Source of the DNA: Macrostomum lignano
Taxonomy: Eukaryota
Length of the DNA: 64,000 nt
Assembly: GCA_002269645.1 (NCBI GenBank)
Contig: NIVC01000739.1
Location: 124,001 to 188,000 of the forward strand
Direction of reading: 5' to 3'
Of this stretch, positions 33,511-59,792 are shown one piece after another. Position numbers and translations under genes: made by a program. Each line of letters starts with the position of its first letter. Position 1 is the first letter of the stretch. A model generated the notes under the pieces. It was not told the DNA's origin. It did no database searches and was given only the letters and a program-made list of their open reading frames with translations.

Positions 33511-33599
33511 TTTGCTGTCAGGTTTGAAGTCTAGTGAAATGTTTAAATCTGGAGCAAGGTTATAATAAGGGTTGCTTAAGCCAGTAGTTTGTGAACTGC

Positions 33600-34160
33600 G
33601 GAGTCCTGTGTGGAAAGCTTGTCAAAATACTTAGTGAACTTTGTCAGAAGACTTGTGAAGATTGACAGAAGACTTTGTGAAGATTGGCAGAAGATTTTGT
33701 GAAGATTGCCAGAAGACTATGTGAAGCTTGGCAGAAGACTTTGTGAAGATAGACAGAAGGCTTTTCAGAAGACTTTGTGAAGCTTGGCAGAAGACTTTGT
33801 GAAGATTGCCAGAAGATTTTGTGAAGATTGCCAGAAGACTTTGTGAAGATTGATAGAAGACTTTGGGAAGATTGCCAGAAACCTTTGTGAAGATTGCTAG
33901 AAGACTTTGTGAATCTTGGCAGAACACATTGTGAAGATTGACACAAGACTTTGTGAAGATTGGCAGAAAACTTTGTAAAGATTGCCAGAAGATTTTGTGA
34001 AGATGGACAGAAGACTTTGTGAAGATTGACAGAAGACTTTGTGAAGATTGCCAGAAGATTTTGTGAAGATTGACAGAAGACTTTGTGAAGCTTGGCAGAA
34101 GACTTTGTGAAGATTGCCAGAAGATTTTGTGAAGATTGCCAGAAAACTTTGTGAAGCTTG
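33600..34160. repeat. 22-bp minisatellite
   Basis: Unit agaagactttgtgaagattgac. Confidence 0.95.
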
Positions 34161-34358
34161 AAACTTGTGTGATCTTGAAACTTATCTGCTTGAATATAAT
34201 TCGGAATTCCCTTCTAGACTGTTCCGTGATTAACTTGCATTCCAGAATTTTAAAGCAACAAAGCTTTAGAAATCGTAGATTATAGGCTAATTCTAATCTG
34301 CAGATAAGTCGTAGAGAACGCTAGCATTGATAAGCACCCCGTGTTTAACTTGCTGCCT

Positions 34359-34636
34359 AGTAGAAGGCATGAGGGGGCTTCTGGGACAAAATTTTTCACC
34401 TCCTCCATAATCCCATTAAATCCATCTATATTATCCCTGACAGAATCAGAAAAAAAGGGGGGTCGCACTCGCTCACAAAACGTCCTCCATAATCCCATTA
34501 AATCCATCCATATTATCCCCGACAGAATCATGAAAAAGTGGAGGGGTCGCACTTGCTCCGAAAACTTCGAACATAATCGTATTAAATCCATCCATATTAT
34601 CCCTGACAGAATCAGTGCATAACAGATTTCCACTAA
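34359..34636 (+). repeat. Left terminal inverted repeat of the Polinton (278 bp)
   Basis: Reverse complement of 49543-49843 with about 12 mismatches; three internal ~80-bp sub-repeats. Confidence 0.93.
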
Positions 34637-34836
34637 CACCTGTTATGTTCACTGACACTGACATAATCCACTGACATCCACCCATAGCATCTTCGAAACA
34701 ATCAGAAAAAAAATCTGCATTCTTCTCCCCATGGGGCCCACATTCAATCCGAAGCGGCGAAACCAGATCCCTAAAACTTTAAATCCCCTAACCCAGGGTC
34801 CTTACCCTTTGAAAAAAATTAAATTTTCTCTAAAAA

Positions 34837-35079
34837 ATGTTTCCAGTTGTCTCTCCAGGTTCTTATTATACTCAGCCTAATCCATTGTACAAATCCAAGT
34901 ACCAATGCAAACTTGAATGCAGCGAGTACATGAGAAAATATTGGCCCAACGTTGATATCAATGTCCCTAATATTAATCTAGCTCTCCAAAGACACTGGTT
35001 TCATAAGTATGGAGTAACCTACGTAAAAGATTACGACAGCTACTATAACTTTGCAGAAATCATTAAGCAATTGCGTTAA
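34837..35079 (+). CDS. Polinton orphan protein, 80 aa, Tyr/Trp-rich
   Basis: TAAAAA-ATG start context like the other element genes; family not recognised. Confidence 0.55.
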   Translation: MFPVVSPGSYYTQPNPLYKSKYQCKLECSEYMRKYWPNVDINVPNINLALQRHWFHKYGVTYVKDYDSYYNFAEIIKQLR

Positions 35080-35084
35080 AAACT

Positions 35085-35186
35085 GAAAGGCCAAAAGGCC
35101 AAAAGGCCAAAAGGCCAAAAGGCCAAAAGGCCAAAAAGGCCAAAAGGCCAAAAGGCCAAAAAGGCCAAAAGGCCAAAAGGCCAAAA
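35085..35186. repeat. GGCCAAAA(A) tandem array
   Basis: About 12 short units immediately after ORF 34837. Confidence 0.9.
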
Positions 35187-35460
35187 CCCTTTTCATTTTG
35201 GCCTTGCGCGAGGCCGAAATCGTTTGCATTCTGGCCTTCCCTCGAGACGGAATTCTTCCTCGGCTGGGCTCAGTTAAAGTGAAAATCTCTCTCCCCCACG
35301 CGCGCTGCGCCCACATACATACACTCCCCTCTCCCCCACACACGCGACGCCCGCGCCCACAACCTGTCAGAATGGGGTAAGAGATTTTGAGTACACATGC
35401 GCGCATTTTTTTCATACCACTCTATTCTCTGCAAGCATACTTAAAAGGGAACGCATTTTC

Positions 35461-36323
35461 TCACATTCTCTCAATGATCAACGTCAATACAAACTCTTCA
35501 CCGTTGAAATCAACACTCACCCCATCTTCAGTCTCAAGCTGTAGCACAATCTCGTGAATCTCCTTATTACTCAATACAACTCTTTTCACTGGATTTGGTT
35601 TCTCTACCACCATCTGTCCTCCAGCTACAGAGTTGGAGATGTTGTACAAAATATTAGTTCGCTTTCCTTTAAATACCCAATCAAGACTGAGATTAGTTCT
35701 GATTAGAATATTCAAACCCTTTACAATGTCTGCTATATTGGGTGCTAAGAACAAACCGCGTACACTTTCCCGGGCCATGATAACGGCCCCGTCGCTTGAG
35801 TGGCGGTCCGCGCCGCGGATTCTGCCTTATAAACTTTCTTCTCGAATCCTAATTCCCTATACCAAGTGTCATCTTTAAACTCAACCTCCGCATTTTTGTG
35901 AACTTGCATGACCACTCTCATTACAGTGAGATCATAGGTTAGTTTGACAGGGAACATTTTTTTATCTGGCTTACTCGCATCAGGTGTCTCAAAATGGCCT
36001 CTCTTAGTAAAGACATTTTCTAGAAAGTTATTGTAGGTATCCACACTCTGCGTGCTCACATGGAATACCACAGGGTCTGCTGCTGCACCTTTCCATTTGT
36101 AATAAAACTTATTATTTGCTGCCGACACATTGGGAACGTTTGACCAACCAGTGAAGTCGTTAAGATAGACATGGTAATTAGCGCCTGGATCCAGGCGAAT
36201 CGCCTGCTCTAATTTTTCAACAAACATCCCGTTTGAGTCATTAATTCGCCCAGTTATTGTAATAGGAATGCTCTCCTTGGAGTGTGAAACAATGTTGTTT
36301 AGTCTTTCGGCTATAGCTTCCAT
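35461..36323 (-). CDS. Minor capsid protein (penton-like), one frameshift; 287 aa if restored
   Basis: PNVSAANNKFYY and NILYNI...VVEKPNP...IVLQLETEDGVSVDFNGEEFVLTL motifs, adjacent to the MCP; adding one G to the G-run near 35790 joins ORFs 35745-36323 and 35461-35778. Confidence 0.8.
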
Positions 36324-36343
36324 TTTTTGTCCTAAAAAAATAT

Positions 36344-37630
36344 TTAAACTTTACTGGATGAATTGTTGATCATGTTAAGCTTCACCTTCCTCTCAAATGC
36401 ATAGATAATGTACAAGTCCACGGGTGTTGCGACAGTCCTCTCAATGTTAGTCACGATATTCACAGGGCTGTTATCAGTAGGCATTTGTCTGGCAGACACA
36501 TCAGCTCCAAACATCGGATATAGAGTTCCATATTGAAGAGCAGTGATAGCAATTCCATTGTTCTCTTTCACAGCCAAGTCGACCAACTCGCTATAAAATT
36601 TGCTAATCTTGTTCTGACTGAAATCTCCATTTTGTGGCAGTGCAGGGTAAAGATTATCACTGATTTCATGCTGAATGGACCGCACGTCTCCATGCATGTA
36701 GCGTATAATGCTATTTGGGTTTCTCATATTAATAATGATATACCTTGGATTGCTGCATGATCCCTCTTTGATGCAGATGTTTGTTCTAGTTTCGTTACGC
36801 TCATCTCGACACATGTAGGCCGTGTATGCAACATCAATGTCCTTCTCTATTGCCTTGAGATAATCTGCTTTTAGTGCAGTCTTTGGCTCAATGACTTCCA
36901 AATACAGCTCGATTCCGGTTAGCTTCACCTCCATCCTTGTGTGGTCCGCCCCAGTCCACAACACTCTACTGCGATCATCTCTAGTCATCTTAAAGGTGTA
37001 GCTAAAGTTACTAGTCAGTGGATTAAATGTATTACAGAATCCACTCATAAATCTCAGTGGTACAAATACATCAACAGACCGATACAGCGGGTTTTTAGCA
37101 GCATCATCAGCACCTTGCAATGCATAGTTGTATCTCTTCTTCCTCTTTTTATAGCCACTGTCATTGATGTCTCCTTCTTTTTCATCTGCAATAAAACCCG
37201 CACCACTTCCCAACTGAATAAAATCAGGATTCTCGATCAAACAATGAGCGTCATAGACAATTCCAAAGTTGGCGATTCGCTCCAACTCAGTGCTCCCATT
37301 CGATACACTAAACTCCTTGAACATGTACGCCCAAAAGTTACTGATCAGAGCCACATCCGCATCATGCTTGTCAACGTTAGCACGAGCCGCATCCGCACCA
37401 CCCTTTGTCTTGAATTGAAATGTCATATGGAAGCCGCTCTTAAGACTGTGCACACTAACCAAAGACGAACATCCATTGTATGTAAATGTCAGTGTTTGAC
37501 CAGGACCAAGATTAGTTTCATTCTGATTTTCCTGACTGGGAACTCTTACCTGAGTCGCTTTGATTGTGCTATCATCACTCAAAATAGGCTTGTTAATTTT
37601 GTAGAAAACTGGTGTCAGTGGGTCGTTCAT
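36344..37630 (-). CDS. Major capsid protein (double jelly-roll, hexon-like), 428 aa, intact
   Basis: Size, beta-strand-rich pattern, LISNFWAYMF...NGSTELERI segment typical of Polinton MCPs, position next to the penton. Confidence 0.8.
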   Translation of the reverse strand: MNDPLTPVFYKINKPILSDDSTIKATQVRVPSQENQNETNLGPGQTLTFTYNGCSSLVSVHSLKSGFHMTFQFKTKGGADAARANVDKHDADVALISNFWAYMFKEFSVSNGSTELERIANFGIVYDAHCLIENPDFIQLGSGAGFIADEKEGDINDSGYKKRKKRYNYALQGADDAAKNPLYRSVDVFVPLRFMSGFCNTFNPLTSNFSYTFKMTRDDRSRVLWTGADHTRMEVKLTGIELYLEVIEPKTALKADYLKAIEKDIDVAYTAYMCRDERNETRTNICIKEGSCSNPRYIIINMRNPNSIIRYMHGDVRSIQHEISDNLYPALPQNGDFSQNKISKFYSELVDLAVKENNGIAITALQYGTLYPMFGADVSARQMPTDNSPVNIVTNIERTVATPVDLYIIYAFERKVKLNMINNSSSKV

Positions 37631-37660
37631 TTTTTAACTAAAAATAAAATAAAATAAGAA

Positions 37661-38896
37661 ATGAAGCGAAAAAGTACACAGCAGATATCTGAATTGGAGA
37701 AGCTAGCACAAGCAGAGAAACGAGTTACCGGGCTAATAAATAAGGAGCAACAATCCTACAATGAGTTTGTCCAAGCAGCCACAGAGTTTCATAAGCCCGG
37801 GTATGGAGAAGCTAAGAAAAATATTGATCAGGTCAAAGAAACTATCGACGACATACAGGAAACCCAAGTGCAAAAGGTTTTGGGTAAAATTCCAGAAGCA
37901 CCACAGATACAACCGCAACCACAGACACAACCGCAACCACAACAATCACAACAACAATCACAACCACATCAATCACAACTAAAAGTGACAGATAACATTT
38001 TTGGACCAGTAGAGCGTGTCGAACATGATGGGAAATATGTATTTGGAATAAGTATGTGGAGAAGAAACATTTATAATGAACCAGTGGAATATTATATCGA
38101 CATAAATAAGAAACATATTTCTGTTGTCAAAGGCTCGGAAACTAAGAGCATTCCTTTCACAGAAACCTTACTGACTTTTATGACCAAGAACCAAGAGAGA
38201 ATCTCGGACAAACAGCTAAAGAACTATAGAGATCTAGTGACTTTTTCTCTTGCTAGAGATATAGCAATACTAAAGGCCCCAGAAGTCCTGAGACTTATGT
38301 ATGATAACGGTGTCAACCTGACTAGATTCAAAAAGTACAATCACTTTAAACAATGGTTCGATTTGCCAGATCAGGGGGAAGTCATTGATCAGATGAAATA
38401 TCTAGAACAACAACAACAACAGCAACAACAACCACAACCACAGCAGCAGCAACATTTCACAGAAGTACTCAGGCAACTGGAAAATGCAGATCCGACTCAA
38501 GTAGCTAAATATAAAAATGATCACCCAACAGACTGGCAACGCTTAGAACAACACTCTCCAGATCGAATGAATAGAATCAATCAAAGAGTTTTCACACCTC
38601 AACAAAGACAGGCACCAAATGACAGTTCCATCTCTGAAAGTGAGCAGTCTTTTGCATCACCTCCCCAGCAGCTACAAGCCCAACCAACTCCACAACCCCA
38701 AGACCAACCGCCCTCAACTGGAAAAGGAATTTCTGAAATCTACAAGCGAGTAGCGGTTCTTCTAGGAGCGGCAAAGACCGGAATGAAAGATGAAAATAGA
38801 AAAGAATTTGTCAACATCCTGGACAAAATGCTTGAGAGAAAATACATCGATAAGAGGGCGAGAGAGCTTCTGCTTTCGCGGTTCAACAAAAAATAA
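37661..38896 (+). CDS. Gln-rich Polinton protein, 411 aa, function unknown
   Basis: Long open frame; C-terminal helical motif YKRVAVLLGAAKTG...EFVNILDKML resembles a recurrent Polinton motif (from recall). Confidence 0.75.
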   Translation: MKRKSTQQISELEKLAQAEKRVTGLINKEQQSYNEFVQAATEFHKPGYGEAKKNIDQVKETIDDIQETQVQKVLGKIPEAPQIQPQPQTQPQPQQSQQQSQPHQSQLKVTDNIFGPVERVEHDGKYVFGISMWRRNIYNEPVEYYIDINKKHISVVKGSETKSIPFTETLLTFMTKNQERISDKQLKNYRDLVTFSLARDIAILKAPEVLRLMYDNGVNLTRFKKYNHFKQWFDLPDQGEVIDQMKYLEQQQQQQQQPQPQQQQHFTEVLRQLENADPTQVAKYKNDHPTDWQRLEQHSPDRMNRINQRVFTPQQRQAPNDSSISESEQSFASPPQQLQAQPTPQPQDQPPSTGKGISEIYKRVAVLLGAAKTGMKDENRKEFVNILDKMLERKYIDKRARELLLSRFNKK

Positions 38897-38912
38897 TTTA
38901 TTTCAAGTAAAA

Positions 38913-39302
38913 ATGCCTCTTATTTTCGAAAAAGACATTGACAAATACTATGACAAAGAGGAACTTAATCTCATTAAACGCGGATCTGGACTTTTCCCTG
39001 CAGGCCACTATCCAAGAAAAGAACGCTCTGGGAATGGCCTTGCTGATTTGATCGCTCAAGGGGCCAAGATTTTTAAGGTCATTGGAGAGAACAAAGAGAA
39101 CATCAAGAACGTTGCCGAAGCGGCTGGCAGTGTAGCCACAGCAGCCAAAAAGATTAAAGATACTGTAACACCTAAACAAGAGATTCAACCTCCACTGGCC
39201 CCGCTGGCCCCGCTGGCCCCAAATCCAGACAGTGTGGACCCTGCAGTCTATGAGAAGATGAGAGCAAGCATTAAAAAAGGAAGTGGTTTCAAATTTGACT
39301 AA
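38913..39302 (+). CDS. Putative virion core/precursor protein, 129 aa
   Basis: TAAAA-ATG at 38913; KRGSG, RSGNG and KKGSG are candidate adenain-type cleavage sites; amphipathic helix GLADLIAQGAKIFKVIG. Confidence 0.65.
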   Translation: MPLIFEKDIDKYYDKEELNLIKRGSGLFPAGHYPRKERSGNGLADLIAQGAKIFKVIGENKENIKNVAEAAGSVATAAKKIKDTVTPKQEIQPPLAPLAPLAPNPDSVDPAVYEKMRASIKKGSGFKFD

Positions 39303-39319
39303 AGGTACTTTCCGAGGGT

Positions 39320-39505
39320 ACAAGACTAGTCCCGAAATGACACATCTAAGTCCCAAAATGACACATTTAAGTTCCAAAATGACACATCTAAGTCCCAATA
39401 AGTCCCAAAACGACACATTCAAGTCCCGAAATGACACATCTAAGTCCCAAAACGACACATTCAAGTCCCAAAACGACACATTCAAGTCCCGAAATGACAC
39501 ATCTT
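39320..39505. repeat. 21-bp tandem array between the core gene and the ATPase
   Basis: Unit gtcccaaaatgacacatctaa with variants. Confidence 0.9.
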
Positions 39506-39543
39506 CTAAATGATTTATTATTTAATTTTTTTTCATAGAAAAA

Positions 39544-40344
39544 ATGGACTTTTCAAACGACTTCAATCCTCACTGGACACGCAATCAGATAAAATTTGCT
39601 CACAACGAGATAATTCCAGGGCACTTCCGATGCATTGTTGTTGGCTCATCTGGGTCAGGGAAAACCTTCAGAGTTTTTAACATGCTCCTCAGACCTGGAT
39701 TCCTCGATTATGACACACTACATATCTATTCACCCACTCTGTATCAAGATGAGTATAAAATGCTAGTAGCGGGCCTACAGAACAAACTCAACAAAGAGGA
39801 CATTATTCAATGTTTTAATAACCAAATGAGCCTTCCCAGTAACCCTGAAATTGTAGCTGCTGAATATGCAAAGCACCTCAAAGACAATGAAAAATGGCAG
39901 AACATTAAAGTGTTCACCTATGGAGATCCACAGGCTGATCCAAAGACCAAACTTCTACCCCAACCAGATGAGCTAGAAAAGGGGAGAAAGCATTTGATCG
40001 TCTTTGATGATTGTATGACAGGCCCACAGAAGCAGATAGAAAACTATTTTACAAGAGGACGACATAACAATTGTAATATAATTTACATTGCACAGAACTG
40101 GTTTGAACTGCCAAATAAAACAATTCGAGGTAACTGTAATTTGATTCTCCTTTTCCCAACCATACCACAAGATCGACTGAAACGATTTTATAATGAGGTC
40201 ATTGCCCCAGCTCACATTACATATCCAGCTAAGAACTCTAACAGAACAATATCACAGGAGGAATTCGTTAACATATGCTATGAAAAGTGGAACCAACCCT
40301 ATCAGTTTGTCATGATTAATAAGGAGAAAAGAATTTTACTTTAA
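39544..40344 (+). CDS. A32/FtsK-like DNA packaging ATPase
   Basis: Walker A GSSGSGKT, Walker B LIVFDD, and FTRGRHNNCNIIYIAQ. Confidence 0.93.
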   Translation: MDFSNDFNPHWTRNQIKFAHNEIIPGHFRCIVVGSSGSGKTFRVFNMLLRPGFLDYDTLHIYSPTLYQDEYKMLVAGLQNKLNKEDIIQCFNNQMSLPSNPEIVAAEYAKHLKDNEKWQNIKVFTYGDPQADPKTKLLPQPDELEKGRKHLIVFDDCMTGPQKQIENYFTRGRHNNCNIIYIAQNWFELPNKTIRGNCNLILLFPTIPQDRLKRFYNEVIAPAHITYPAKNSNRTISQEEFVNICYEKWNQPYQFVMINKEKRILL

Positions 40345-40360
40345 TTTTTCATTTAAAAAA

Positions 40361-41155
40361 ATGTCTATAAATTTTGCAGGTGAGTCAACTACAGGCAACA
40401 GCACTCTCACAACTTCCTTCCTTGACAAGCGCTACATTAACACTGATGAAGAGATCCCAGAGATCAAACTGAATAAAAACAGACTGAAAGCCCTAGAGCG
40501 CTCCATGCACCAGTTGCAAATAAACATAGAAGATCTCAGGCTTAAAGTAGCTAGACAGAAGTTTGACAGTGATAAGCTTTATGTGCCGTTGTTAAACGCA
40601 ACTAATGAACTTAGGTCAGAAATAACTTCGATAGTCTCGCTAATCAACGGCTTGAGATCATCAGTTAATCTTCTGGGAAATTCCACTGATAGACGGATGC
40701 GTATTCTCGAAGGAGGAGTTTTCACAAACACAGCTAAAGTAAATAATTTAGAAGAGTTTATGAACCAGTCAACAGCGTTGCATGATAGAATTAAAGAAAA
40801 CGTCGCAACCAACACAGTTAAAGTCAATAATTTAGAAGAGTTCATGACTCAGTCAACATCGTTGCATGATAGAATTAAAGAAAGACTTGATGCAATTAAA
40901 GTCTATTTAGATTTAATTTTTACCGAATGGCAGAAATCGTTGAGAAGAATCAGTCGTCTTGAGGGAGTACACAATCTTCCTGATATTGATACTGTTGAAG
41001 AGGCACCACAGACCACAAGGGAAATAAGTGATCCAACCGACTTGACCACTGACCACAAATTTCGTGAGCCAACCAGTTTGACCACTAACCCAAAATTTCG
41101 TGAGCCAACCGGTTTGTTTGAGATCAAGTGTAGAATGGAGCGCATAGACAAATAA
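40361..41155 (+). CDS. Coiled-coil protein with internal repeats (fibre-like candidate), 264 aa
   Basis: Heptad pattern, two 28-aa repeats (TNTxKVNNLEEFMxQSTxLHDRIKE), three ~12-aa PTxLTT repeats. Confidence 0.7.
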   Translation: MSINFAGESTTGNSTLTTSFLDKRYINTDEEIPEIKLNKNRLKALERSMHQLQINIEDLRLKVARQKFDSDKLYVPLLNATNELRSEITSIVSLINGLRSSVNLLGNSTDRRMRILEGGVFTNTAKVNNLEEFMNQSTALHDRIKENVATNTVKVNNLEEFMTQSTSLHDRIKERLDAIKVYLDLIFTEWQKSLRRISRLEGVHNLPDIDTVEEAPQTTREISDPTDLTTDHKFREPTSLTTNPKFREPTGLFEIKCRMERIDK

Positions 41156-41269
41156 ATAGGTAGATTCGAAGAGACCTGCTGGCGCCAACTGCAGACGAAA
41201 CAATCAAACGTAAAACAAATCTAACCACCACCAACGAGTTGTCAATTTTTTTTAAAAAATTCTCTAAAA

Positions 41270-41926
41270 ATGGATGCTCAAAATTCTCTTTATGATCCGA
41301 ATGCTCCCACAGCACCCACAGCACCTAGTGCACCCCAATATGAGCAACAAAAACTCTACCCCGTCATTACTTGTAACTCTCAGCAGTTTCGACTGGTGGA
41401 GATTCAAAAAATGCGTGATGATCTTGAAAAAAATATTTTCCACAACACAAAGAAAATTAAGCGCTATGACAACCACTGTAAATTTTTCGACTACAGCAAT
41501 ATGATTCTAGGATCTGTGTCTGTTCTAACTGGGTCTGCTGCAGCTGTCTCAGTGTTGCCAGCCATCACAGTCCCAATCGCAATTCCACTTGGTTCAGTAG
41601 GTGCTGCATGTGGACTTATTTCAGCAATTACTGGAGCAGTAGCGCGAAACAGGCGAAAAAAACTAAAGCAGCTACAGGAGAAGCAAGTAAAAGAGAAAGG
41701 AGTGCACACTTCAATCATAGGGTACATTTCAAGGGCAATCGAGGATAAGTTCATTTCAGAGGATGAGTTCAAAACCATTCAGGATCTTTATGAACAATCA
41801 ATTCGAATGAACTTGAACATGGTCGGTACTGATGACATGAGTCAGCTGAGAAATGAACTCGAGAAAGTTCTTCAACATTATGTGGAAAGAAGGACAACGA
41901 GAAGGACAACGAGAAATGCACAATGA
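41270..41926 (+). CDS. Putative membrane-active accessory protein (GasderminX-like of adintoviruses), 218 aa
   Basis: FRLVEI helix, two hydrophobic Gly/Ala-rich segments, basic RRKKLK, and ISRAIEDKFISEDEF; family assignment from recall. Confidence 0.65.
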   Translation: MDAQNSLYDPNAPTAPTAPSAPQYEQQKLYPVITCNSQQFRLVEIQKMRDDLEKNIFHNTKKIKRYDNHCKFFDYSNMILGSVSVLTGSAAAVSVLPAITVPIAIPLGSVGAACGLISAITGAVARNRRKKLKQLQEKQVKEKGVHTSIIGYISRAIEDKFISEDEFKTIQDLYEQSIRMNLNMVGTDDMSQLRNELEKVLQHYVERRTTRRTTRNAQ

Positions 41927-41930
41927 ACCC

Positions 41931-42330
41931 TTATGAAACACAGCCAAGAATAATTTCCTTGTAGGTCTTTCGTGTTTTGGTCATTGCATACAAAACAGTC
42001 ATGCACAGCTCACCGCAAATATCACTGCTAAGACCTTGGAGAATAAAGTCTGAGCGATAAATTTTTTTATTTTTTTCCCTTCATATAATTTCTTAGCTCT
42101 TCTGGTACTGCCGTCCCATAGCTATCGAAGTAATAACACTTGTGCTTGCGATCGGGATCAATCACCCAGCAAACCCAATGAGATCCTGGCTTATCGGTGG
42201 TGTCAAAGTTCATGATGCCGCATTCCTTTCTTAGAGGAAAATCGGGCAGAGTGTCCCTCATAAATATTCCTCTAAAGTTTGGGATTTCCAGTTCGTTAGC
42301 CAAATCTTCAAGAAAGTTATTTGTCGTCAT
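41931..42330 (-). CDS. Adenain-like cysteine protease, one frameshift; 132 aa if restored
   Basis: GSHWVC, YFDSYG, then in the +1 frame ILQGLSSDICGELC; one extra A in the A7 run at 42070-42076. Confidence 0.9.
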
Positions 42331-42406
42331 TTTTTTATGAGGTTTATTAAACTTTCTCTTAAACCTAAACCCAATCTCCTAATCTCCTAATCTCCAGTGC
42401 CCGAAT

Positions 42407-45400
42407 CTAACTTCCACCTCCTAAACCTAATCTCCAGTGCCCGAACGGTAGACTGTTAATGTTGTCATCAAAAATGAATCTCTTGTTATCTGCACCTGAC
42501 AGTCCAATCTTCTTTTGCTGAATTGTGTGAATAATATGGTTTTTAGATTGTAGCTTTGAGAACTCATGTGATGTCTTTTTGTTATAATTCAAGGCGTCTC
42601 TGTATTCAGCTTCATTAATTTCCTTCCTAACTACACGTTTCGGAATTCCCTTTGATTTTTTGATTGGGTCTGACGACTCACATTTTATAAAATAGGACTT
42701 TGCTCTCAACCCAATGAATTCAGTGATTATGTCACCAGCAATCTCGTCCTTCATTTTCCCAATCACTTTCTTGTTAGTAGCGTCAAACACTTGATCACCA
42801 TTCTGTGTCCTGCAAGATTCATCATACTCAGACAAGTCAAACAAATCTTTTTGCTGCAGCATGTCCTGATAAATGTCTTCTGTTTGAATATCCATAATAA
42901 AACTGTCTGTGTCAGTGTACAAGAGTTTCATTTTATCCTTGTACTGCTGCTTCATGCCATAGAAGAACTGGTACATCAGACGTTTTGATTCGTCGAGAAC
43001 AGTGACACCTGTATAGATCGGCTTGCGCAGCGTCACCTTGGTTTTGTAAAATATGATCACACCTAAGTAGCTATTAAAGATATGGAGTTCTTTGAATGTT
43101 GGCTTTGACATATTTGCCTGAATAACAGCAGGCTCTGATGAGGTAACAAGTTTCAGGTTTGTTCTTTTCCTCTCATTCTCAAGAGTCTTGCCATAGACAG
43201 AGTTGTTGGCAACTTAAAGAGGTTCTTGTCAAAGTCGTTGGTTGCTTTGGTCCTAAACTGGGTGTTCTTATCAATGTAGGGTTTCATCCACGCTTCCTCT
43301 GTAAATGTAAGAGCCCTGTGAACTTTGGTGACCCTGCAACCAGTGAGATAAAATACTGAAGCAGTTTGTAATGGATTTTGTAACGTGTCTTGTTGTTTAG
43401 ATTCTGTGTTAGTTTCTCTGTATGTTCTTTTTCTGTTCCTGACAGGTGCCAAGTTCCATTATTATCATTGGGAGTTTCGATTATTTTCGGGCACTTGATG
43501 TTCTCTGGGAAGGGTGGAAAGTCAGAGAAATAGTCGTGAAGCTCTGGTGGAATGTAAACATCAACCTCATAAATGGCAGCCAATGAAAAGTCCTGTTTGA
43601 ATTCTGATGAGGGTAGCCATCGAAAATCTCTAACTGGAAGATCTTGACTCATCGCCCACCCGTAGAGATTATTAGCGTCCAAGTAAGTAATGTAGTTTGA
43701 GGGCTGCTCCTTATTGTAAGATTCAATGTAGGGATTGTTTGCTTTTGCATATCTATGGGTGCAAATTGAGATCCCCCCTCGCTTTGACGATTCGACAAAA
43801 TTGTACATGTCAATGTCTGTAAGAAGTTCAATGTACCAATCTGGATCTTGATCCCATTTCATTTTAAGCAAAGATTCCCAGCTAGTGGCAGGCAGAGACA
43901 CATAATGTGCTGGATCGAGGCCATATGCTGTGTACCAGGTGTATCTGAAGGTTTCAAACACATCAGCCAGCAGAAACACATCTGTGTAGAGGTAAAGCAG
44001 GTGATACTGGAAGAAGTTTTGACAATTAAAGTAATTATAGACATGCTTCGCATGCTCATAGTCTTTGTCAGAGATTCCAGAGTCTGTTAGCTTTGAAAAG
44101 AACTTCTCCTGTGGTGGTAAACCTTCTTCAAATACGTGATACCCAGTAATATTTTCATAGGGGTAGAAGCCTTTCTTTCTTAAAAGTTTAAATGATTCAT
44201 CAGTGTTGTTAATTTTACTTGCAAACATCTTTGTATATGTACATTGTTCATCTTTTAGATTCTTGCTTAGTTCGTCTAGACTGGCAGCTAGAAATTGATA
44301 TGAATCCTTCAGTCTTATTTTACCTTTACCCGAATTATCCTGTTTAATATCAACACACTTAAACTTCTCCTTGTTCTCTGCGATGCAGTCAAGGTGTATG
44401 TCTGGAATCATGCCGATTTTTTCAATTATTAAATGCATGTCATAGTTCTTTGCGTTGTGACAAAATATCGTTAGATCATGAATGTTCGATTTTAGCTTTA
44501 GATTACAGGTGTTATGCGCTGCACCTCTAAATTTCCCAGTAAAGTGGCAGTGGTCCCTAACGGTGGGGTTTTTAATATCAGTGCAAGTTAAATGTTTCCT
44601 GCAGATGTGGCAATGAGTTGCTGATAGGAAATTACTTTCATCCTCCTCAGTCATCATTATTGGAACAGGTTGAAGGGTGCTAATAACTTTTTGCAACTCT
44701 AACATTCTGGCAATAAACTGCTCCACACACTGCTCTCCAAAGAAATAATTATACTCAACAAGTCCTTTTGTATTAATAAAGGCATATGCTACTGAATTGG
44801 GGACATGTTTTTGAGTTTGAGTTTGAGTTTGTTTTTGAGTTTGAGTTTGTTTTTGAGTTTCCGGCACGATTGAGCATTCGAAATCAGCATATACAACAAA
44901 TGGGAGCTTCTCCATCTTGTGATAGTTCTTAAACCGGAGATACTTCTCTTCAGCTGAAGGAAGAGAGCAGTTTGTTGGGTGATCCTCACATGATAATTCA
45001 TGCTCTGCTAGTTTTTCAAAGCGTTCAGGTCCACTGTAATGCTTAAGGCACAAGCGGCAGATGGCAACAGCCTCGTGATGATTATTCAACTGCTTGTGAA
45101 TGAGTCTTGAAAGATCTTTAATCCAAACATAGTGAGCCTCCTCTAGTAAATTACCAATCACTAGAAGATCCACTTCATCCGCCTTTTCCCCTCAGGATCT
45201 AAAACGTCTTTGCTACATCTGACCGGTTGAACTTTCTCAGTTTTTTCACTCCATTCAAAGACTGTGATTCTAATTTTGTTATTAAACACTTCTTCTAGCT
45301 TTGAGATCTGAGAGATCGCCAAGCCTCCTTTGTCAAACCTGATTCCCTTCTTTTCGCATTCGATAAGATAGTAGTTGAAATAATTTTGATAATTTGAGGT

Positions 45401-46257
45401 TCTTTCGGGGTGGTGAGGTACACTAATAAGTGCAGAAAGAACTGCCCATAGGGCACAGCAATTGTCTTTATTTTTAACATTTATGCAAGCTTTTTTGCCG
45501 GCTAGCTTGTGTGGGAGCTCTATATAAGAGGAGGCTTTAAGTGGGTCATATTTCATGACCATGACAGTCGCTCTTTGAATCCCTCTCACGACCCATCCAG
45601 AACCTCTGGATGTAAACGCTTCAATTTTCTTAGTGGCATCTTGAAGGAAAGGATCCAGTGTGTCTGTTGGGGTGAATGGCTTTGCCTTTGTTGTCATGTA
45701 ATACTCGAGATGCTCAGTGGGTTTCGCAGGCATATAAAACGCAATCTTGAATGATATCTGTAGTTTAAAGGTCTTGCGTGTTTTGAGTGTGTGATCAACA
45801 ACTGATTGGATGCTGTCTTTATAGTCGTAGATGTTTGCGGTGGTATCCTTAATTGGGATTGTGTACTCTATGTAATGTTCTGTAAACTTCCTCTGTGCAA
45901 AATTAATCTCTTCAATGGCAAGCTCCGACTCTTTTAAATGGATTAATTGCTCTAATTTCCTTGTTCCTGCTTATTTTGTGGGTACTTTGCTTTTTCACCA
46001 GTGAGAGTTTCGTATTTGTTAACTAAGTTGCGACTCCTCTCTTGGTGTTCCTTTGCAGAATTTTTTATAGGCGCATACTGGTTGGATTCTAATTGATTGA
46101 TGATTTCCAACTGTTTTTCATAGCTTCCCAGGTGACCAGGGTCTGTGTTAAACGTTTGTTTACATGCTTCTCTTAGTAAATTACTTTTGTCTTGAAATGA
46201 GACGCCTTTTGAAAAATATTTGTTGACTAAATCTCTTGCTGGATTGGCTTTTGGCAT
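42407..46257 (-). CDS. polB: Protein-primed family B DNA polymerase with four -1 frameshifts; 1284 aa if restored
   Basis: Exo I VYADFE, RDHCHFTGKFRGAAH, Exo II HNAKNYD, YLDANNLYG, KLANNSVYGK, YTDTDS; adding one base at ~45958, ~45185, ~43343 and ~43210 gives a 3855-nt frame. Confidence 0.93.
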
Positions 46258-46466
46258 TTTTTTCTCTAAAATAAAAAAAAATTTTGAGGGTGACCACCCT
46301 GATAGAAAAGTTGAACTGTTTCTACATCCTATCAGTAGTATTAGGTTTATGAAGCTGGATAAAGTGGGGTTTTAAACCTCATCACATGCGCATTATTGTA
46401 AACCCAGCATTGTGCAGTGTCATGATGGCTTTGACAATGTCAGACTTGCTTACAGAATTTTCATGC

Positions 46467-46838
46467 TCAAATCATCACGATCGGGCAGCCCTCAGGGCAA
46501 CCATCTCCTGCCTTAATTGTTATACCTTTATCTCTTGCAATCTTTTGCAATTCTAGCTGGTGGGCTCTATCATTCCCAGCTTTAACAGCAGTTGCTACAC
46601 CTCCAGCTACACCACCTGCGGCACTTACAGCGCCTGCAATGATCGGAATAAGAGCTGCTAATGGTAGGATTCCTCCTGACTTTTCATCTGTGATACTGTG
46701 TCTTTGTTCATTACACTGAACTATTTGCTGCGTGGGATCGATTTTTACTTTGATACCTTTAATTGATATAAGACCTGGTTTCTTTGATTCAATGATTTTA
46801 TTGAGTTTATTGATGGTTCTGGTTTCAATCTTTGTCAT
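46467..46838 (-). CDS. Adenovirus pX-like membrane/core precursor, 123 aa
   Basis: KSGG-ILPLAALIPIIAGAVSAAGGVAGGVATAV parallels adenoviral pX (MRGG-ILPLLIPLIAAAIGA). Confidence 0.7.
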   Translation of the reverse strand: MTKIETRTINKLNKIIESKKPGLISIKGIKVKIDPTQQIVQCNEQRHSITDEKSGGILPLAALIPIIAGAVSAAGGVAGGVATAVKAGNDRAHQLELQKIARDKGITIKAGDGCPEGCPIVMI

Positions 46839-46854
46839 TTTTTATTTTAATATT

Positions 46855-47892
46855 TTAATTAATTTCTGTGTCAGCTGGTATCACTAGGAGTTCAGCTCTA
46901 GTGAATGACCGTGTGGGGGATTTAGGGTTAAAGGCCTGAGATAAAAAGTAATAGTCACCGGAGTCGGAGGTAAAATGTCTGTCTATTTTATGTACATCAA
47001 GGCTGAAGTATGGATCTGTAGCTCTTCTTTTGGTGTCTTTCTCTAGCTCTCCAGGTAGATATAAAAAGCGTAGAAACTCAGAGTTTGTCAGTATGTATGG
47101 TGATTCAACTCCTGGAAGCTTAGGGTAGTTCGAGGTGTGTTTTGTGTTGTGTGTGTTGTGTGGGGTTGTCGTGTTGTTGTCTGTTTTATGAGATGACTTA
47201 AGTTCGACAGTGTCTTGTTTAATTGCATGGGACGGTTTCAATCCAGTCATACGTGTGACTTCATTGTTCAGTTGCTCTATAACAGTGGGGAGCCGGTCTG
47301 TCCATTTTGAATAGTACTGACCACTTTTTAGTTTCAGCTCCTCAGCTGTCTGCTTAGTGAATAGCCTCTTGGCTAGAGTTAGATTGAATCTCTCAACGTA
47401 CGCTTGGTCTCTGTGCAAGTTTGTTCTGCCATAGCGAATCTCTGTATTGTGCTTTTCCATAAGGGATTTCACTGCACCCATGAATTCCTTACCCGGGTCG
47501 GTCATGAACATTTCAGGGTAACTAAGGGGTGAGTTTTTATAAATATCTTGCAGTGCGCTGGCAACAACCTCTGACTTCTTCGTCTTGAGTGGGCGAGCTT
47601 CCTTATATCTGGAGGCAACATCTGTAATTGTGAGAGCATACTTGTAGCCCGAGTCATTGGGGAGAAACAGAAGATCTGCTTAGTGCGCCTCATTAGGTTT
47701 ATAAATACTGAAATGGGGCCTTTCAAATTTTACTGGTGGGAAATAGACTTGGTAGACTGCTTGCTTAGAGAGCCACTTTTCTACTTTAGCTTTTGGTTCC
47801 TTACTTAGTTCTGCGAGTTTGGTGACTGCATTTTTTCCTACAAAGAATCCTTTGTCGCTGTAGTAGAGTTTTTTAAGTTTCTGATCTGTCAT
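46855..47892 (-). pseudogene. Retroviral-like (rve) integrase with one in-frame stop
   Basis: ATG at 47892; PNEAH*ADLLFL (TAA at 47682-47680, expected Gln CAA); DDE residues in ADLL, MTDPGKEF and AYVERFNLTL. Confidence 0.9.
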
Positions 47893-47922
47893 TTTTTTAA
47901 AAAGAAAATTTAAAATAAAATA

Positions 47923-48372
47923 ATGCAACGCTCTGGTGGTAAAATAGATTCACATGGACTGATAGAAAAGCTTCCTCATCCAAACAAAGGCTGGACCATT
48001 CCCGGGTACAAATATTGCGGGCCTTTGAATCCACTTGAAATACAGTTAGATAAAAACAATAATCCAAATCCTGGGCATGAGCCTGTGAACGAGCTAGACT
48101 CTGTCTGCATGTGGCACGACGTTAAATATAGAGATTTTCCTGAGGAGAAGAATCGTTGGGACAAAGAAATGCTTAGAAGACTAGACAATATAGGGGCTTC
48201 AAGCGGGTGGAGGGAATCGATCGCTCGGAAGCTAGTTAAAGCTGTTATTTTTAGTAAGGCAAAGTTGGGGTTGGGGGTTGAAGGCGAGGGCGGGGTGGGT
48301 TTTGCATTGCACGCGCCAAGTCAAGAACTAGGAAGACTGTTGAAAGAGCTGGGGGTTGAGAGAGCAGAATGA
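47923..48372 (+). CDS. Parvovirus-VP1-type phospholipase A2 domain protein, 149 aa
   Basis: Ca-binding loop PGYKYCGP and catalytic PVNELDSVCMWHDVKY. Confidence 0.88.
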   Translation: MQRSGGKIDSHGLIEKLPHPNKGWTIPGYKYCGPLNPLEIQLDKNNNPNPGHEPVNELDSVCMWHDVKYRDFPEEKNRWDKEMLRRLDNIGASSGWRESIARKLVKAVIFSKAKLGLGVEGEGGVGFALHAPSQELGRLLKELGVERAE

Positions 48373-48381
48373 TTCTCTCTC

Positions 48382-48509
48382 CACTTGTGTGGAGCGAAAA
48401 GAAGCGAAGGCCAAAAGGCCAGAACGCAAAGGATTTTGGCCTCGAGTAAGGCCAAATTTTATCGCAAACTGGCCTTTTGGCCTTCGCTTCGCTTTTCTCC
48501 ACACAAGTG
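48382..48509. repeat. 128-bp palindrome/hairpin
   Basis: Arms cacttgtgtggag-N6-gaagcgaaggccaaaaggccag and its reverse complement; inner stem tttggcct/aggccaaa. Confidence 0.85.
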
Positions 48510-48777
48510 TACAGTCTTGAGCACACTGGTTTCGGCTACAATCTCTCTTTCCACCATGCTTCTCCTTCATGCTCCTCACCTCCTCACCCTATGCTTTGTC
48601 TATAGAGAAGTCTCACCCCTCACATTCACACACCTCATGTTCTCTCGTACACTGAGCTATATCGATTGTTTTTCCCTGCTTGACTCCAAGATTGTACAGT
48701 CTGGAATTTTCTAGAATTTTCTACGGCTAGCTGTATTTAAGCAAACCAAGAAACACTCGAGCTGCTTCTCCCCACAT

Positions 48778-49345
48778 ATGCCCTCAACTGCTACTGATAA
48801 ACGGCGACTGCAAGATCTTAAGTCAAAACTACGGACTGCACAAAATGTGACAACCGCGTTGCACGCTGATAGCGACCTCGCAACCTATCCGCTAGAGATT
48901 ATATATAATGGGTGGAGTGAAAGTTCACTTCAGAGAAATACGGATTTTTTTAAATCAATGCAGGTAAGACTCGAAATTTGTGTTTTCTGTGTATTTCTGG
49001 GTAATTTTTTATCATTAATCATGACATTGTTTCATTTCTTACTATTTGAAGGTGGTTAAAGACCTAAAGGAAAAGATTCAAATTAAAGAGAAGGAGTTGG
49101 AGAGCCGCGAGAGGGAAAACATCCCGCGTGGATGCGAATGCCCAGTGTGCTACAACTGGCTTTCGCCTTCTAGGAAGCTGGACTGCCCGCATTCGGTCTG
49201 CCTGAGATGTGTCCAAACTTTGTACAATGCGGCAGAAAATAGTATAACATGTCCAGAGTGTCGTGCGATAACATCCAAGCCGGTCAATGAACTGCCACCA
49301 AATGTGGCATTGGAGAGAGCGATTGAAAGTCATCGAACAAATTAG
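48778..49345 (+). CDS. Two-exon RING-finger (C3HC4) protein inside the Polinton, 159 aa
   Basis: Exon 1 48778-48963, 88-nt intron GTAAGA...TTTGAAG, exon 2 49052-49345, phase 0; CPVC..LDCPHSVCLRC..ITCPECR..LPPNVAL. Confidence 0.85.
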
Positions 49346-49542
49346 TTTCGATTTAAGATTCTGCAGTCGTCGTTTATTAGTAAACATAAAACACCTTTAC
49401 GAAAATAAAATATAATCTTAAATCTTAAATAAAATATAATGAGTCTTTGTTTCTTTTCTTTGCTTGAAGTGAAATTTGCATTAATGATTCAAGCATGCAT
49501 GCAAAGTGAAACTCTTACTTAGCTAGCATGACTAAGCAAATT

Positions 49543-49843
49543 TTAGTGGACACCTGTTATGCTCTGATTCTGTCAGGGATAATGCTCTGATTCTGTCAGG
49601 GATAATATGGATGGATTTAATAGGATTATGTTCGAAGTTTTCAGAGCAAGTGCGGCCCCTCCCCTTTTTCATGATTCTGTCAGGGATAGTATGGATGGAT
49701 TTGATGGGATTATGGAGGACGTTTTGTGAGCGAGTGCGACCCCCCTTTTTTTCTGATTCTGTCAGGGATAATATAGATGGATTTAATGGGATTATGGAGG
49801 AGGTGAAAAATTTTGTCCCGGAGGCCCCCTCATGCCTTCTACT
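49543..49843 (-). repeat. Right terminal inverted repeat (301 bp, includes a 23-bp tandem duplication)
   Basis: gctctgattctgtcagggataat is duplicated relative to the left TIR. Confidence 0.93.
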
Positions 49844-50454
49844 CTGCCTTATTGAGTGTAGCTACTGTTGTCTCTTTAATTCTTGTCAGTTGGATTTTGA
49901 GTTGTACGGCTTTCAGATTTGCGGTGCTTTTAAAAATTTCTGCTATACCCTTTTATTGGTGAAGGATTACTGAGATTTTGCGGATTATTAATTTTAATAA
50001 AACTCAGAATCTGAAAACCGTCATTAAATTAATAAATATAGCGTTTTGACTGACATTTTACTTTTATCTAATATAAAATCAACTATCTATAAGGCTATAG
50101 CGATGTAATACAATGTGTATATCCTTTTTTTTCGTGTGTAAACACGTGTGTAACTAAGTGTACATATTTGCTCTGCAGCTGTGGCAAGATAGGCTGAAAA
50201 ATAGATTGGCCATTCTTTCCTGTGTAGAGATCGATGTTTGCTCTTCTTTTGTATTCTCTGTATCCCTTTGTAAATCTTTCTCCCATAGTATACCTTTTCT
50301 TGCACTAATCGATTATAGCCATCAGTTAATCTATACTCTCTTCTCTCCCTAATTTACCTTCATCTTACCTGGGCTACCAGCTTCTTTGCCTAGTTTATCC
50401 TATTTTCACTTGCATTCCCTTCATTTAACTTTATCAGAGAGAAGTTAAACCCCG

Positions 50455-51340
50455 GTTCTACCCATCTTTACCTCTGCTCTACCCATCTTTACCTCTGCTC
50501 TACCCATCTTTACCTCTGCTCTACCCATCCTTTACCCCTGCTCTACCCATCTTTACCTCTGCTCTACCCATCTTTACCTCTGCTCTACCCATCCTTTACC
50601 CCTGCTCTACCCATCTTTACCTCTGCTCTACCCATCCTTTACCCCTGCTCTACCCATCTTTACCTCTGCTCTACCCATCCTTTACCCCTGCTCTACCCAT
50701 CCTTACCTCTGCTCTACCCATCCTTTACCCCTGCTCTACCCATCCTTACCCCTGCTCTACCCATCTTTACCTCTGCTCTACCCATCTTTACCTCTGCTCT
50801 ACCCATCTTTACCTCTGCTCTACCCATCCTTACCTCTGCTCTACCCATCCTTTACCCCTGCTCTACCCATCCTTACCCCTGCTCTACCCATCTTTACCTC
50901 TGCTCTACCCATCTTTACCTCTGCTCTACCCATCCTTTACCCCTGCTCTACCCATCCTTACCTCTGCTCTACCCATCCCTTACCCCTGCTCTACCCATCC
51001 TTACCCCTGCTCTACCCATCCTTTACCTCTGCTCTACCCATCTTTACCTCTGCTCTACCCATCCTTTACCCCTGCTCTACCCATCTTTACCTCTGCTCTA
51101 CCCATCCTTTACCCCTGCTCTACCCATCCTTACCTCTGCTCTACCCATCCTTTACCCCTGCTCTACCCATCCTTACCCCTGCTCTACCCATCTTTACCTC
51201 TGCTCTACCCATCTTTACCTCTGCTCTACCCATCTTTACCTCTGCTCTACCCATCTTTACCTCTGCTCTACCCATCCTTTACCTCTGTTCTACCCATTCT
51301 TACCTCTGCTCTACCCATTCTTACCCCTGCTCTTCCCTCC
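50455..51340. repeat. 20-21-bp minisatellite
   Basis: Unit ctacccatctttacctctgct. Confidence 0.95.
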
Positions 51341-51667
51341 TTTACCCCTACTATACCCTCCTGCGCCCTTAACCACTATCTTTACTCTCTGCACATCTTT
51401 ACACCTAATTATAGGGCTCATTACACTTTTCCCTAATCTACCCCATCTTACTTAAAGATTTTCTTTTTGCGTGATATATATATATATATACCCATCTTTA
51501 CTTCTAAGCTACCCTTTATCTACCCTTAGCTTTCCATAATTTACCAATCCTAATTAACTATAACTCCCCACATTCCTGATCAGATCAGTGTACTCCATAT
51601 CTGCTACGCTAATTAACAATAGATCTCAAGAACAAGCCTCGTCCTCTTAAAAGTCCGCCAGTCCGCA

Positions 51668-59480: not shown

Positions 59481-59533
<53 letters not shown>

Positions 59534-59545
59534 CACAGACAGGGC

Positions 59546-59582
<37 letters not shown>

Positions 59583-59583
59583 C

Positions 59584-59642
<59 letters not shown>

Positions 59643-59643
59643 C

Positions 59644-59682
<39 letters not shown>

Positions 59683-59694
59683 CACAGACAGGGC

Positions 59695-59731
<37 letters not shown>

Positions 59732-59732
59732 C

Positions 59733-59791
<59 letters not shown>

Positions 59792-59792
59792 C

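What the first reader, a model, noticed from the sequence alone, without database searches (positions are those of the whole stretch)
34353..49849. Complete endogenous adintovirus/Polinton with full virion module and exact boundaries
Seen: 6-bp TSD, AGT...ACT termini, TIRs, and about 14 ORFs covering replication, integration, packaging, maturation, capsid and entry, plus several unassigned ORFs. Known: Polintons encoding MCP, penton, ATPase and protease are thought to form virions, but virions have rarely been shown in animals. Inference: a candidate reactivatable virus, possibly from an undescribed lineage.
Basis: partly seen in the sequence, partly recalled or inferred. Interest (0 to 1): 0.85.

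Follow-up and report, generated by a model that had tools for sequence, protein, structure and literature searches.

The report
Decayed Polinton provirus, divergent capsid lineage
A virus-like DNA element of a well-known kind sits between two host genes with its ends intact, but four of its essential genes are broken, so this copy is a young fossil of a little-sampled branch rather than a virus ready to wake up.

Summary
The boundaries and gene list are right; 'complete and reactivatable' is not. A 15,485-bp Polinton/Maverick (34359-49843) lies between two copies of a 6-bp target-site duplication, with 262-nt terminal inverted repeats (10 mismatches). It carries protein-primed PolB, rve integrase, A32-type ATPase, adenain-like protease, double-jelly-roll capsid, penton, PLA2, a protein-X-like gene and about seven more ORFs. 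As assembled, four core genes are broken: PolB changes frame three times (probably four), penton once, protease once, and integrase has an in-frame stop ahead of its catalytic core. This copy cannot replicate, integrate or build mature particles alone; assembly error is not excluded but is the less likely reading. The lineage is distinct: PolB is PF03175 (Alpha) type but only 33-47% identical to full-length relatives, and the capsid forms a small clade with unnamed relatives at 71-77%, with 87-94% fragments showing that closer siblings exist. Oddities: PLA2 and protein X are separate genes, a RING gene seems to carry an intron, and there is a 128-bp internal palindrome. Verdict: a new, mildly decayed member of a known kind.

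The parts
34353..34358 (.). Left target-site duplication, CTGCCT
34359..34620 (+). Left terminal inverted repeat, 262 nt, starts AGTAG, holds three 82-84-nt sub-repeats
34837..35079 (+). 80-aa ORF, unassigned
   Evidence: 0 Pfam, 0 PHROG
35086..35240 (.). 8-bp tandem array plus a degenerate relative of the right-hand palindrome
   Evidence: (D6, D14, I11)
35461..36323 (-). Penton (minor capsid protein), broken: frame changes near 35790-35800
   Evidence: 9 of 9 full-length homologues align in two frames; P0141 (87-88% identical) spans the place in one frame; fold of homologue P0132 matches mavirus penton, Z 8.7, rmsd 5.2, 179 aligned
36344..37630 (-). Major capsid protein, double jelly roll, 428 aa, single open frame
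   Evidence: PF21738 E 5.7e-4, below cut-off; full-length homologues; model pLDDT 51; best solved match faustovirus MCP, Z 11.3, rmsd 6.0, 321 aligned
37661..38896 (+). 411-aa Gln/Pro-rich ORF; C-terminus resembles Polinton PZ-type proteins (recalled, untested)
   Evidence: no informative Pfam or PHROG hit
38913..39302 (+). 129-aa ORF with three G-x-G-[LF] motifs and an amphipathic helix after the second; candidate protease-matured membrane-active core protein (inference)
   Evidence: hydrophobic moment 0.57, above the 99th percentile (0.53) of windows in 16 element ORFs, a level that most of the other ORFs also reach
39307..39500 (.). 21-bp tandem array in the intergenic region
   Evidence: D8
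39544..40344 (+). A32/FtsK-type packaging ATPase, 266 aa, open, Walker A and B present
   Evidence: PF04665 E 6e-7; sequence
40361..41155 (+). 264-aa coiled-coil-like ORF with an internal 28-aa repeat; possible fibre (inference)
   Evidence: D16; only weak helical Pfam hits
41270..41926 (+). 218-aa ORF with a hydrophobic hairpin, unassigned
   Evidence: hydropathy 1.89; phrog_11791, unknown function, E 3e-4
41931..42330 (-). Adenain-like protease, broken near 42070: His/Asp half and Gln/Cys half lie in different frames
   Evidence: PF00770 E 0.003; adenovirus protease 1avp E 0.034; second frame (motif recognised from recall; 0 Pfam hits)
42407..45970 (-). Protein-primed PolB (terminal-protein region, vOTU Cys motif, endonuclease-VII-like insert, exonuclease, palm), broken near 45190-45210, 43341 and 43213
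   Evidence: tblastn of 120 homologues; pieces hit 118, 120 and 119 of 120; PF03175 E 4e-12, PF02945 E 1.5e-4
45952..46257 (-). 101-aa ORF overlapping the PolB frame by a few bases; probable PolB start behind a fourth break, or a separate gene
   Evidence: 0 of 120 PolB homologues hit it; homology in the next frame starts at residue 51, before that frame's first ATG
46467..46838 (-). Protein-X (mu)-like ORF, 123 aa, stand-alone
   Evidence: PF05829 E 3.1e-7, residues 52-84
46855..47892 (-). rve integrase with an in-frame stop at 47680-47682 ahead of the catalytic core; no chromodomain detected
   Evidence: PF00665 E 2.5e-7 on 46858-47679; match to the integrase part of P0010
47923..48372 (+). 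Parvovirus-type phospholipase A2, 149 aa, open, not fused to protein X
   Evidence: PF08398 E 1.4e-13
48382..48509 (.). 128-bp internal palindrome
   Evidence: I6; DNA fold -51.5 kcal/mol, z -11.9, 0 of 200 shuffles as good
48778..49345 (+). RING-finger gene, probably two exons with an 88-nt GT-AG intron at 48964-49051
   Evidence: PF15227 E 4.9e-7 on 49025-49342; donor and acceptor keep the frame; no transcript evidence
49582..49843 (-). Right terminal inverted repeat, ends CTACT
49844..49849 (.). Right target-site duplication, CTGCCT

Best explanation
This is a full-length but mildly decayed Polinton/Maverick provirus with an Alpha-type (PF03175) polymerase, from a little-sampled lineage, inserted between two host genes. 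Its ancestor most likely worked as Polintons are thought to: the rve integrase inserted the linear genome with a 6-bp staggered cut (the TSD is shown; the enzyme step is inferred); PolB copied it by protein priming from the inverted-repeat ends; the A32 ATPase pumped it into a double-jelly-roll shell with pentons at the vertices; the adenain-like protease matured internal proteins; PLA2, the protein-X-like product and perhaps the 129-aa amphipathic protein helped cross membranes; a RING protein acted on host ubiquitin signalling (all inferred from family knowledge). Since insertion it has gained at least five frame changes and one nonsense codon in PolB, penton, protease and integrase, so it cannot now replicate, integrate or make mature particles by itself. 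Its ends are still recognisable, so copying in trans by an intact sibling is possible but unshown.
For: Boundaries. Gene identities. PolB homologues align across four segments in three frames, one change falling at palm motif B (motif from recall). Penton split in 9 of 9 full-length homologues. Integrase stop in frame, upstream of the PF00665 match. Only 1 of 6 frame-change zones has a homopolymer of 5 or more, and the inverted repeats differ by 10 substitutions and no gaps: both point to real mutation. PMC8097293 (passages) reports 96% of vertebrate Maverick loci as degraded, so decay is the usual state.
Against: No reads were available, so the breaks are not verified. The inverted-repeat divergence predicts 6.4-7.6 nonsense codons in about 3,840 codons and 1 was seen (P about 0.004; 0.12 at the low end of the mismatch count), so the damage is richer in frame changes and poorer in stops than a simple clock gives. 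The host control is weak: 0 frame changes in 3.4 kb of Pfam-matched host frames against 2.1 expected, P 0.12, and those frames were chosen for being open. The protease break rests on a recalled motif, not on an aligned homologue. Plus-strand unassigned ORFs had no homologues to test for breaks.
Confidence: 0.8

Rival explanations
1. The copy is intact in the organism and the breaks are consensus errors of a long-read assembly in a collapsed repeat, so the first reader's 'reactivatable virus' holds.
For: Frame changes outnumber stops 5-6 to 1; stops are fewer than the inverted-repeat clock predicts; the protease break sits in a run of 7; TSD, termini, MCP and ATPase are clean. PMC11131425 (passages) notes that assemblies add frameshifts to such elements.
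Against: 5 of 6 zones lack a long homopolymer; the integrase lesion is a stop codon in an unbroken frame; the two inverted repeats differ by substitutions, 7 of 10 transitions, 4 of 10 at CpG; 1 stop in 6-7 lesions is not unusual if frame changes are 2-3 times as common as stops (P 0.26-0.53; ratio assumed).
Confidence: 0.12
2. The breaks are programmed: introns, ribosomal frameshifts, read-through or a non-standard genetic code let the element make whole proteins.
For: The element seems to use splicing in its RING gene; one break lies in an A-rich tract.
Against: Homologues align across the PolB breaks with no room for an intron; a close relative encodes the penton junction in one frame; TAA, TAG and TGA all end ordinary ORFs in the element; six independent recoding events in four genes have no precedent that I found or recall.
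Confidence: 0.03
3. The copy has been domesticated or kept by the host for the capsid, ATPase or RING products, while the genes for mobility decayed.
For: All lesions found are in PolB, integrase, protease and penton; MCP, ATPase, PLA2, protein X and RING frames are open.
Against: The broken genes make up much of the sequence that could be tested; the penton is lost, so no proper shell; both ends are intact as in a young insertion; no expression or orthology data.
Confidence: 0.05

Closest known systems
Polintons/Mavericks (Polintoviricetes; adintoviruses of Starrett et al., PMC8502044)
   Same: Size 15.5 kb, 262-nt inverted repeats and 6-bp TSD lie inside the ranges given in PMC10748475 (13-25 kb, 100-1,500 bp, 5-8 bp; passage). 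PolB, integrase, ATPase, protease, MCP and penton are all present.
   Different: Four of the six core genes are interrupted. A probable intron-bearing RING gene; PMC8097293 saw no introns in intact vertebrate elements.
Alpha adintoviruses (PF03175 PolB with OTU; Mayetiola-class virion module with PLA2X)
   Same: PF03175 PolB with a vOTU-type Cys motif; PLA2 and protein-X domains present; no gasdermin-like Pfam hit. Named PolB relatives come from corals, molluscs and ants, e.g. Corynactis coral adintovirus PolB at 35%.
   Different: PLA2 and protein X are separate ORFs on opposite strands on either side of the integrase, not the fused PLA2X. No chromodomain found on the integrase. PolB sits on a long branch with no supported sister.
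PF21738 double-jelly-roll capsid family
   Same: All 9 relatives and 15 of 16 proteins scanned match PF21738.
   Different: The window's MCP matches the model only weakly (19.6 bits, cut-off 27) and falls in a 9-row clade (support 100) on a long stem; full-length proteins outside it are 22-27% identical among the 40 rows printed.
Intact vertebrate Mavericks (Barreat and Katzourakis, PMC8097293)
   Same: Inverted repeats, perfect 6-bp TSD, AGT...ACT-type ends.
   Different: Fails their definition of 'intact' (conserved ORFs uninterrupted); different gene order; ends read AGTAGA rather than the doubled AGT.

Membership tests
Polinton/Maverick | Terminal inverted repeats of 100-1,500 bp | tested here: met
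   262 nt, 96%
Polinton/Maverick | 5-8-bp (typically 6-bp) target-site duplication | tested here: met
   CTGCCT on both sides
Polinton/Maverick | Protein-primed family B polymerase gene | tested here: met
   PF03175; 120 of 120 homologues hit the core; gene is broken
Polinton/Maverick | rve integrase gene | tested here: met
   PF00665 E 2.5e-7, just under cut-off; match to P0010; in-frame stop
Polinton/Maverick | Double-jelly-roll major capsid protein | tested here: met
   model of low confidence (pLDDT 51)
Polinton/Maverick | Single-jelly-roll penton | tested here: met
   fold of homologue P0132 matches virophage and giant-virus minor capsid proteins; window copy broken
Polinton/Maverick | A32/FtsK packaging ATPase and adenain-like protease | tested here: met
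   ATPase PF04665 E 6e-7; protease weak (PF00770 E 0.003; 1avp E 0.034) and broken
Alpha adintovirus (PolB class) | PF03175-type PolB with N-terminal OTU domain | tested here: met
   PF03175; OTU inferred from a Cys motif and from homology of the N-terminal piece to 118 of 120 relatives; not folded
Mayetiola-class (Alpha) virion module | PLA2 fused to a C-terminal protein-X domain (PLA2X) | tested here: not met
   two separate ORFs on opposite strands
Mayetiola-class (Alpha) virion module | Hexon and penton cluster with the Mayetiola cognates | tested here: inconclusive
   no named adintovirus hexon among the sequence hits; tree has no named references
Terrapene-class (Beta) virion module | GasderminX and cupiennin-like genes | tested here: inconclusive
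   no gasdermin Pfam hit; the stand-alone protein-X ORF and the 129-aa amphipathic ORF could not be compared with those genes
Intact (potentially active) Maverick, PMC8097293 | All conserved ORFs uninterrupted | tested here: not met
Active virus | Free linear DNA, transcripts or particles | not testable with these tools
   no read or expression data

The most novel reading that the evidence does not exclude
The copy marks a still-active, unnamed clade of animal polintoviruses with its own capsid and penton family, separate PLA2 and protein-X genes, a small protease-matured amphipathic entry protein like adenovirus protein VI, a spliced RING ligase, and paired internal palindromic signals for replication or packaging; intact siblings (or this copy, if the breaks are assembly errors) exist in the same host and make particles.
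Probability: 0.2. Interest if true: 0.62.

Novelty: new member of a known kind. Interest (0 to 1): 0.3.

Why it matters
Whether animal Polintons make virions is still open: PMC10748475 says none has been observed (passage), and PMC8502044 offers only indirect, unpublished evidence from insect cell lines (Discussion). This copy does not make that question testable, because it is broken. Its value is as a clean, annotated marker of a little-sampled capsid lineage with close siblings elsewhere, and as a lead to three small features (split PLA2/protein X, a probable intron, an internal palindrome) that may be traits of that lineage.

Tried and rejected
Other copies or solo ends in the window: none by blastn. 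Relatives of the MCP in bacterial and archaeal genome contigs: 49 pattern matches, 0 confirmed. Rfam on 33500-50500: 0 matches. PHROGs on 10 ORFs: 2 of 10 hit, neither naming an unassigned gene. Adenovirus protease consensus sites in 16 element ORFs or pieces: only 2 matches (in the 264-aa ORF and at the end of PolB), so maturation sites are not shown; the G-x-G-[LFIV] motif is my own relaxed pattern, found 5 times in 3 of the 16, 3 of them in the 129-aa ORF. A hairpin at the left terminus: not better than shuffles (z +1.2). The palindrome as an inserted miniature transposon: no TSD seen at its flanks. An intron to explain the extra ~20 codons in the penton relative to most homologues: rejected, since P0141 and P0138 carry an insert there. 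Non-standard genetic code: rejected. The Atlas gave no name: for homologue P0004 the nearest clusters were 'hypothetical' or double-jelly-roll proteins, the first mostly eukaryotic with nematodes commonest among 25 records; that is a lead only. Both fold searches used low-confidence models and gave no close adintovirus match, which shows nothing about absence. Host identity: not established; flanking genes are spliced, standard-code and animal-like (spectrin repeat, kinase, PARP domains, peptidase C78, ThiF). A flatworm host was a guess from recalled genome style and was not tested; searches on it found no paper describing such an element, and one preprint mentions Orthopolintovirales insertions in flatworms in general (passages). 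The origins of the unnamed relatives, and the viral and metagenome contig collections, stayed unchecked.
Full report
Observation. The element runs from 34359 to 49843 (15,485 bp). CTGCCT lies directly outside both ends; a 6-mer match at a fixed site has a chance of about 2-3e-4. The ends read AGTAG and CTACT and open inverted repeats of 262 nt that differ at 10 positions with no gaps. The repeats are built of 82-84-nt sub-repeats, and the right arm has a 23-nt duplication at its inner edge. The element is 40.5% G+C against 44.3% for the rest of the window. It lies between a peptidase-C78 frame ending at 33510 and a ThiF-family frame beginning near 51670, with host tandem arrays close on both sides. 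No other copy is in the window.

Gene content. Pfam identifies the ATPase (PF04665, E 6e-7), PolB (PF03175, E 4e-12, with a PF02945 insert), PLA2 (PF08398, E 1.4e-13), a protein-X-like ORF (PF05829, E 3.1e-7), and more weakly the capsid protein (PF21738, E 5.7e-4) and protease (PF00770, E 0.003) among 21 frames scanned, then the integrase core (PF00665, E 2.5e-7) and a RING finger (PF15227, E 4.9e-7) among 20 more. A low-confidence model of the 428-aa capsid protein (pLDDT 51) matches double-jelly-roll capsid proteins best: faustovirus MCP Z 11.3, rmsd 6.0, 321 aligned, with PBCV-1, poxvirus scaffold, ASFV p72, mavirus and Sputnik next. A model of the penton homologue P0132 (pLDDT 51) matches giant-virus capsid chains and the mavirus penton (Z 9.0-8.7) and viral minor capsid proteins in BFVD. 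Five or six ORFs stay unassigned (80, 411, 129, 264, 218 and perhaps 101 aa).

The genes are not all whole. The best 120 of 4,510 full-length PolB relatives align to four consecutive segments in three reading frames, changing near 45190-45210, 43341 and 43213, with no gap that could hold an intron. Homology in the first segment begins before its first ATG, and a 101-aa ORF overlaps it upstream, so a fourth break near 45960 is likely; 0 of 120 relatives hit that ORF, so this is inference. All 9 full-length penton relatives among the 12 hits align in two frames, and a 153-aa relative at 87-88% identity covers the junction near 35790-35800 in one frame. The protease frame ends near 42070 after the His/Asp half; the Gln/Cys half is in another frame (motif from recall, no Pfam hit). 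The integrase has a stop at 47680-47682 in an otherwise continuous frame, ahead of the rve core, with no ATG before the first acidic catalytic residue (residues assigned from recall). MCP, ATPase, PLA2 and protein X are open.

Real or artefact. Only 1 of 6 frame-change zones holds a run of 5 or more identical bases, against 11% of 308 background windows. The inverted repeats differ by substitutions only, 7 of 10 transitions and 4 of 10 at CpG. Both favour real mutation. Against this, the repeat divergence predicts 6.4-7.6 stops in about 3,840 codons and one is seen; either the ends differed before insertion or were altered later, or part of the damage is indel error. A control on host frames was weak (0 seen, 2.1 expected, P 0.12, biased selection). 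I put real decay at about 0.8. PMC8097293 (passages) found 96% of vertebrate Maverick loci degraded and defined 'intact' by uninterrupted ORFs, which this copy fails.

Lineage. PolB pieces are 26-34%, 33-43% and 34-47% identical to full-length relatives (47, 118 and 109 of 120 with over 70% cover). In a FastTree of 116 of the 120 plus the window's core piece, the window has the longest end branch (1.1; median 0.11) and no well-supported sister; its join with P0024 is flagged as long-branch attraction. That search took only proteins of 1,113 residues or more, so fragmentary close relatives could not appear. Named relatives come from corals, molluscs and ants. The MCP found 9 relatives among 4,218 candidates, 7 at 70-77% and 2 at 43-44%, all unnamed and on contigs under 4 kb. 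A profile search of 1.84 billion representatives found 538 proteins, 150 listed. In a tree of 97 near-full-length proteins of the 158 held, the window sits in a 6-row clade inside a 9-row clade (both support 100, stem 1.04); full-length proteins outside are 22-27% identical among the 40 rows printed. Two fragments, P0144 (94% over 116 aa, with a large internal gap) and P0141, show that much closer siblings exist somewhere. The capsid tree has no named references, so 'undescribed' means that no named relative was found, not that none exists; RepBase was not available.

Comparison with what is known. By PMC8502044 (passages, part 2 of the text, Discussion and the text layer of Supplementary Fig. 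S2; slide files and figure graphics not readable, file cut) the PF03175 polymerase is Alpha class, and Alpha virion modules carry PLA2 fused to protein X. Here the two are separate ORFs on opposite strands around the integrase, so I file the element as a Polinton with Alpha-class PolB but not as a Mayetiola-class module; maps that I could not see may hold split cases. PMC11161782 (passages) gives the TP-vOTU-exonuclease-palm layout used for the mechanism. PMC4028283 (passages) established the capsid and penton roles and notes split genes in some Polintons. PMC5803895 (passages) lists a weak endonuclease-VII match in insect Maverick PolB, so that insert is not new. PMC11957031 (passages) reports introners inside Polinton-like proviruses of dinoflagellates, so introns in such elements have a precedent outside animals. 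PMC7998265 (passages) gave the adenovirus cleavage consensus. Searches for RING ligases, protein-VI-like proteins and internal palindromes in Polintons (listings only) turned up no paper that plainly describes them; the library lacks most subscription papers. Searches were seen as listings.

Mechanism and state. Shown: insertion with a 6-bp duplication, the gene set, the breaks. Inferred from family knowledge: integrase-driven insertion, protein-primed copying from the ends, ATPase-driven packaging, protease maturation, membrane crossing by PLA2 and small amphipathic or hydrophobic proteins. Speculative: that the 129-aa ORF plays the part of adenovirus protein VI, that the 264-aa ORF is a fibre, and that the palindrome at 48382-48509 (z -11.9) and its degenerate partner near the left end are replication or packaging signals; the repeat word occurs 14 times inside the element and 0 times outside. 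As assembled the copy is non-autonomous.

Verdict. Observation largely right, interpretation overstated. A new, mildly decayed member of a known kind, from a little-sampled capsid lineage, with a few unexplained features. Interest 0.3; about 0.6 if an intact, active sibling family is shown.

Noticed in passing
window:48382-48509 and 35086-35240: A 128-bp near-perfect internal palindrome (z -11.9) and a degenerate partner with an 8-bp tandem array near the other end; the motif is confined to the element; no TSD or Rfam match.
   Followed up: partly
window:48778-49345: RING-finger gene with a probable 88-nt GT-AG intron inside a Polinton.
   Followed up: partly
window:34359-34620 and 49582-49843: The two ends differ by 3.8%, more than the single nonsense codon in the genes would suggest.
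   Followed up: partly
window:38913-39302: 129-aa ORF with three G-x-G-[LF] motifs and an amphipathic helix, reminiscent of adenovirus protein VI (recalled).
   Followed up: partly
P0144 against window:36350-37324: A 94-95% identical capsid fragment lacking the middle third, probably from a deleted sibling copy.
   Followed up: no
window:4622-5263 (+) and 8074-8865 (-): Two PARP catalytic-domain frames facing each other, each preceded by spectrin-like or coiled-coil exons: an inverted pair of PARP-like host genes.
   Followed up: partly
window:33627-34167, 50445-51400, 52246-53430, 57839-60430: Dense host tandem arrays (22-bp, 21/22-bp, longer and 4-bp units), two of them flanking the insertion; they create long false ORFs.
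   Followed up: no
window:12567-13646 (-): Frame with double zinc-ribbon motifs followed by a Pro/Ala/Thr tandem repeat.
   Followed up: no
window:39307-39500: 21-bp tandem array inside the element, between the 129-aa ORF and the ATPase.
   Followed up: no
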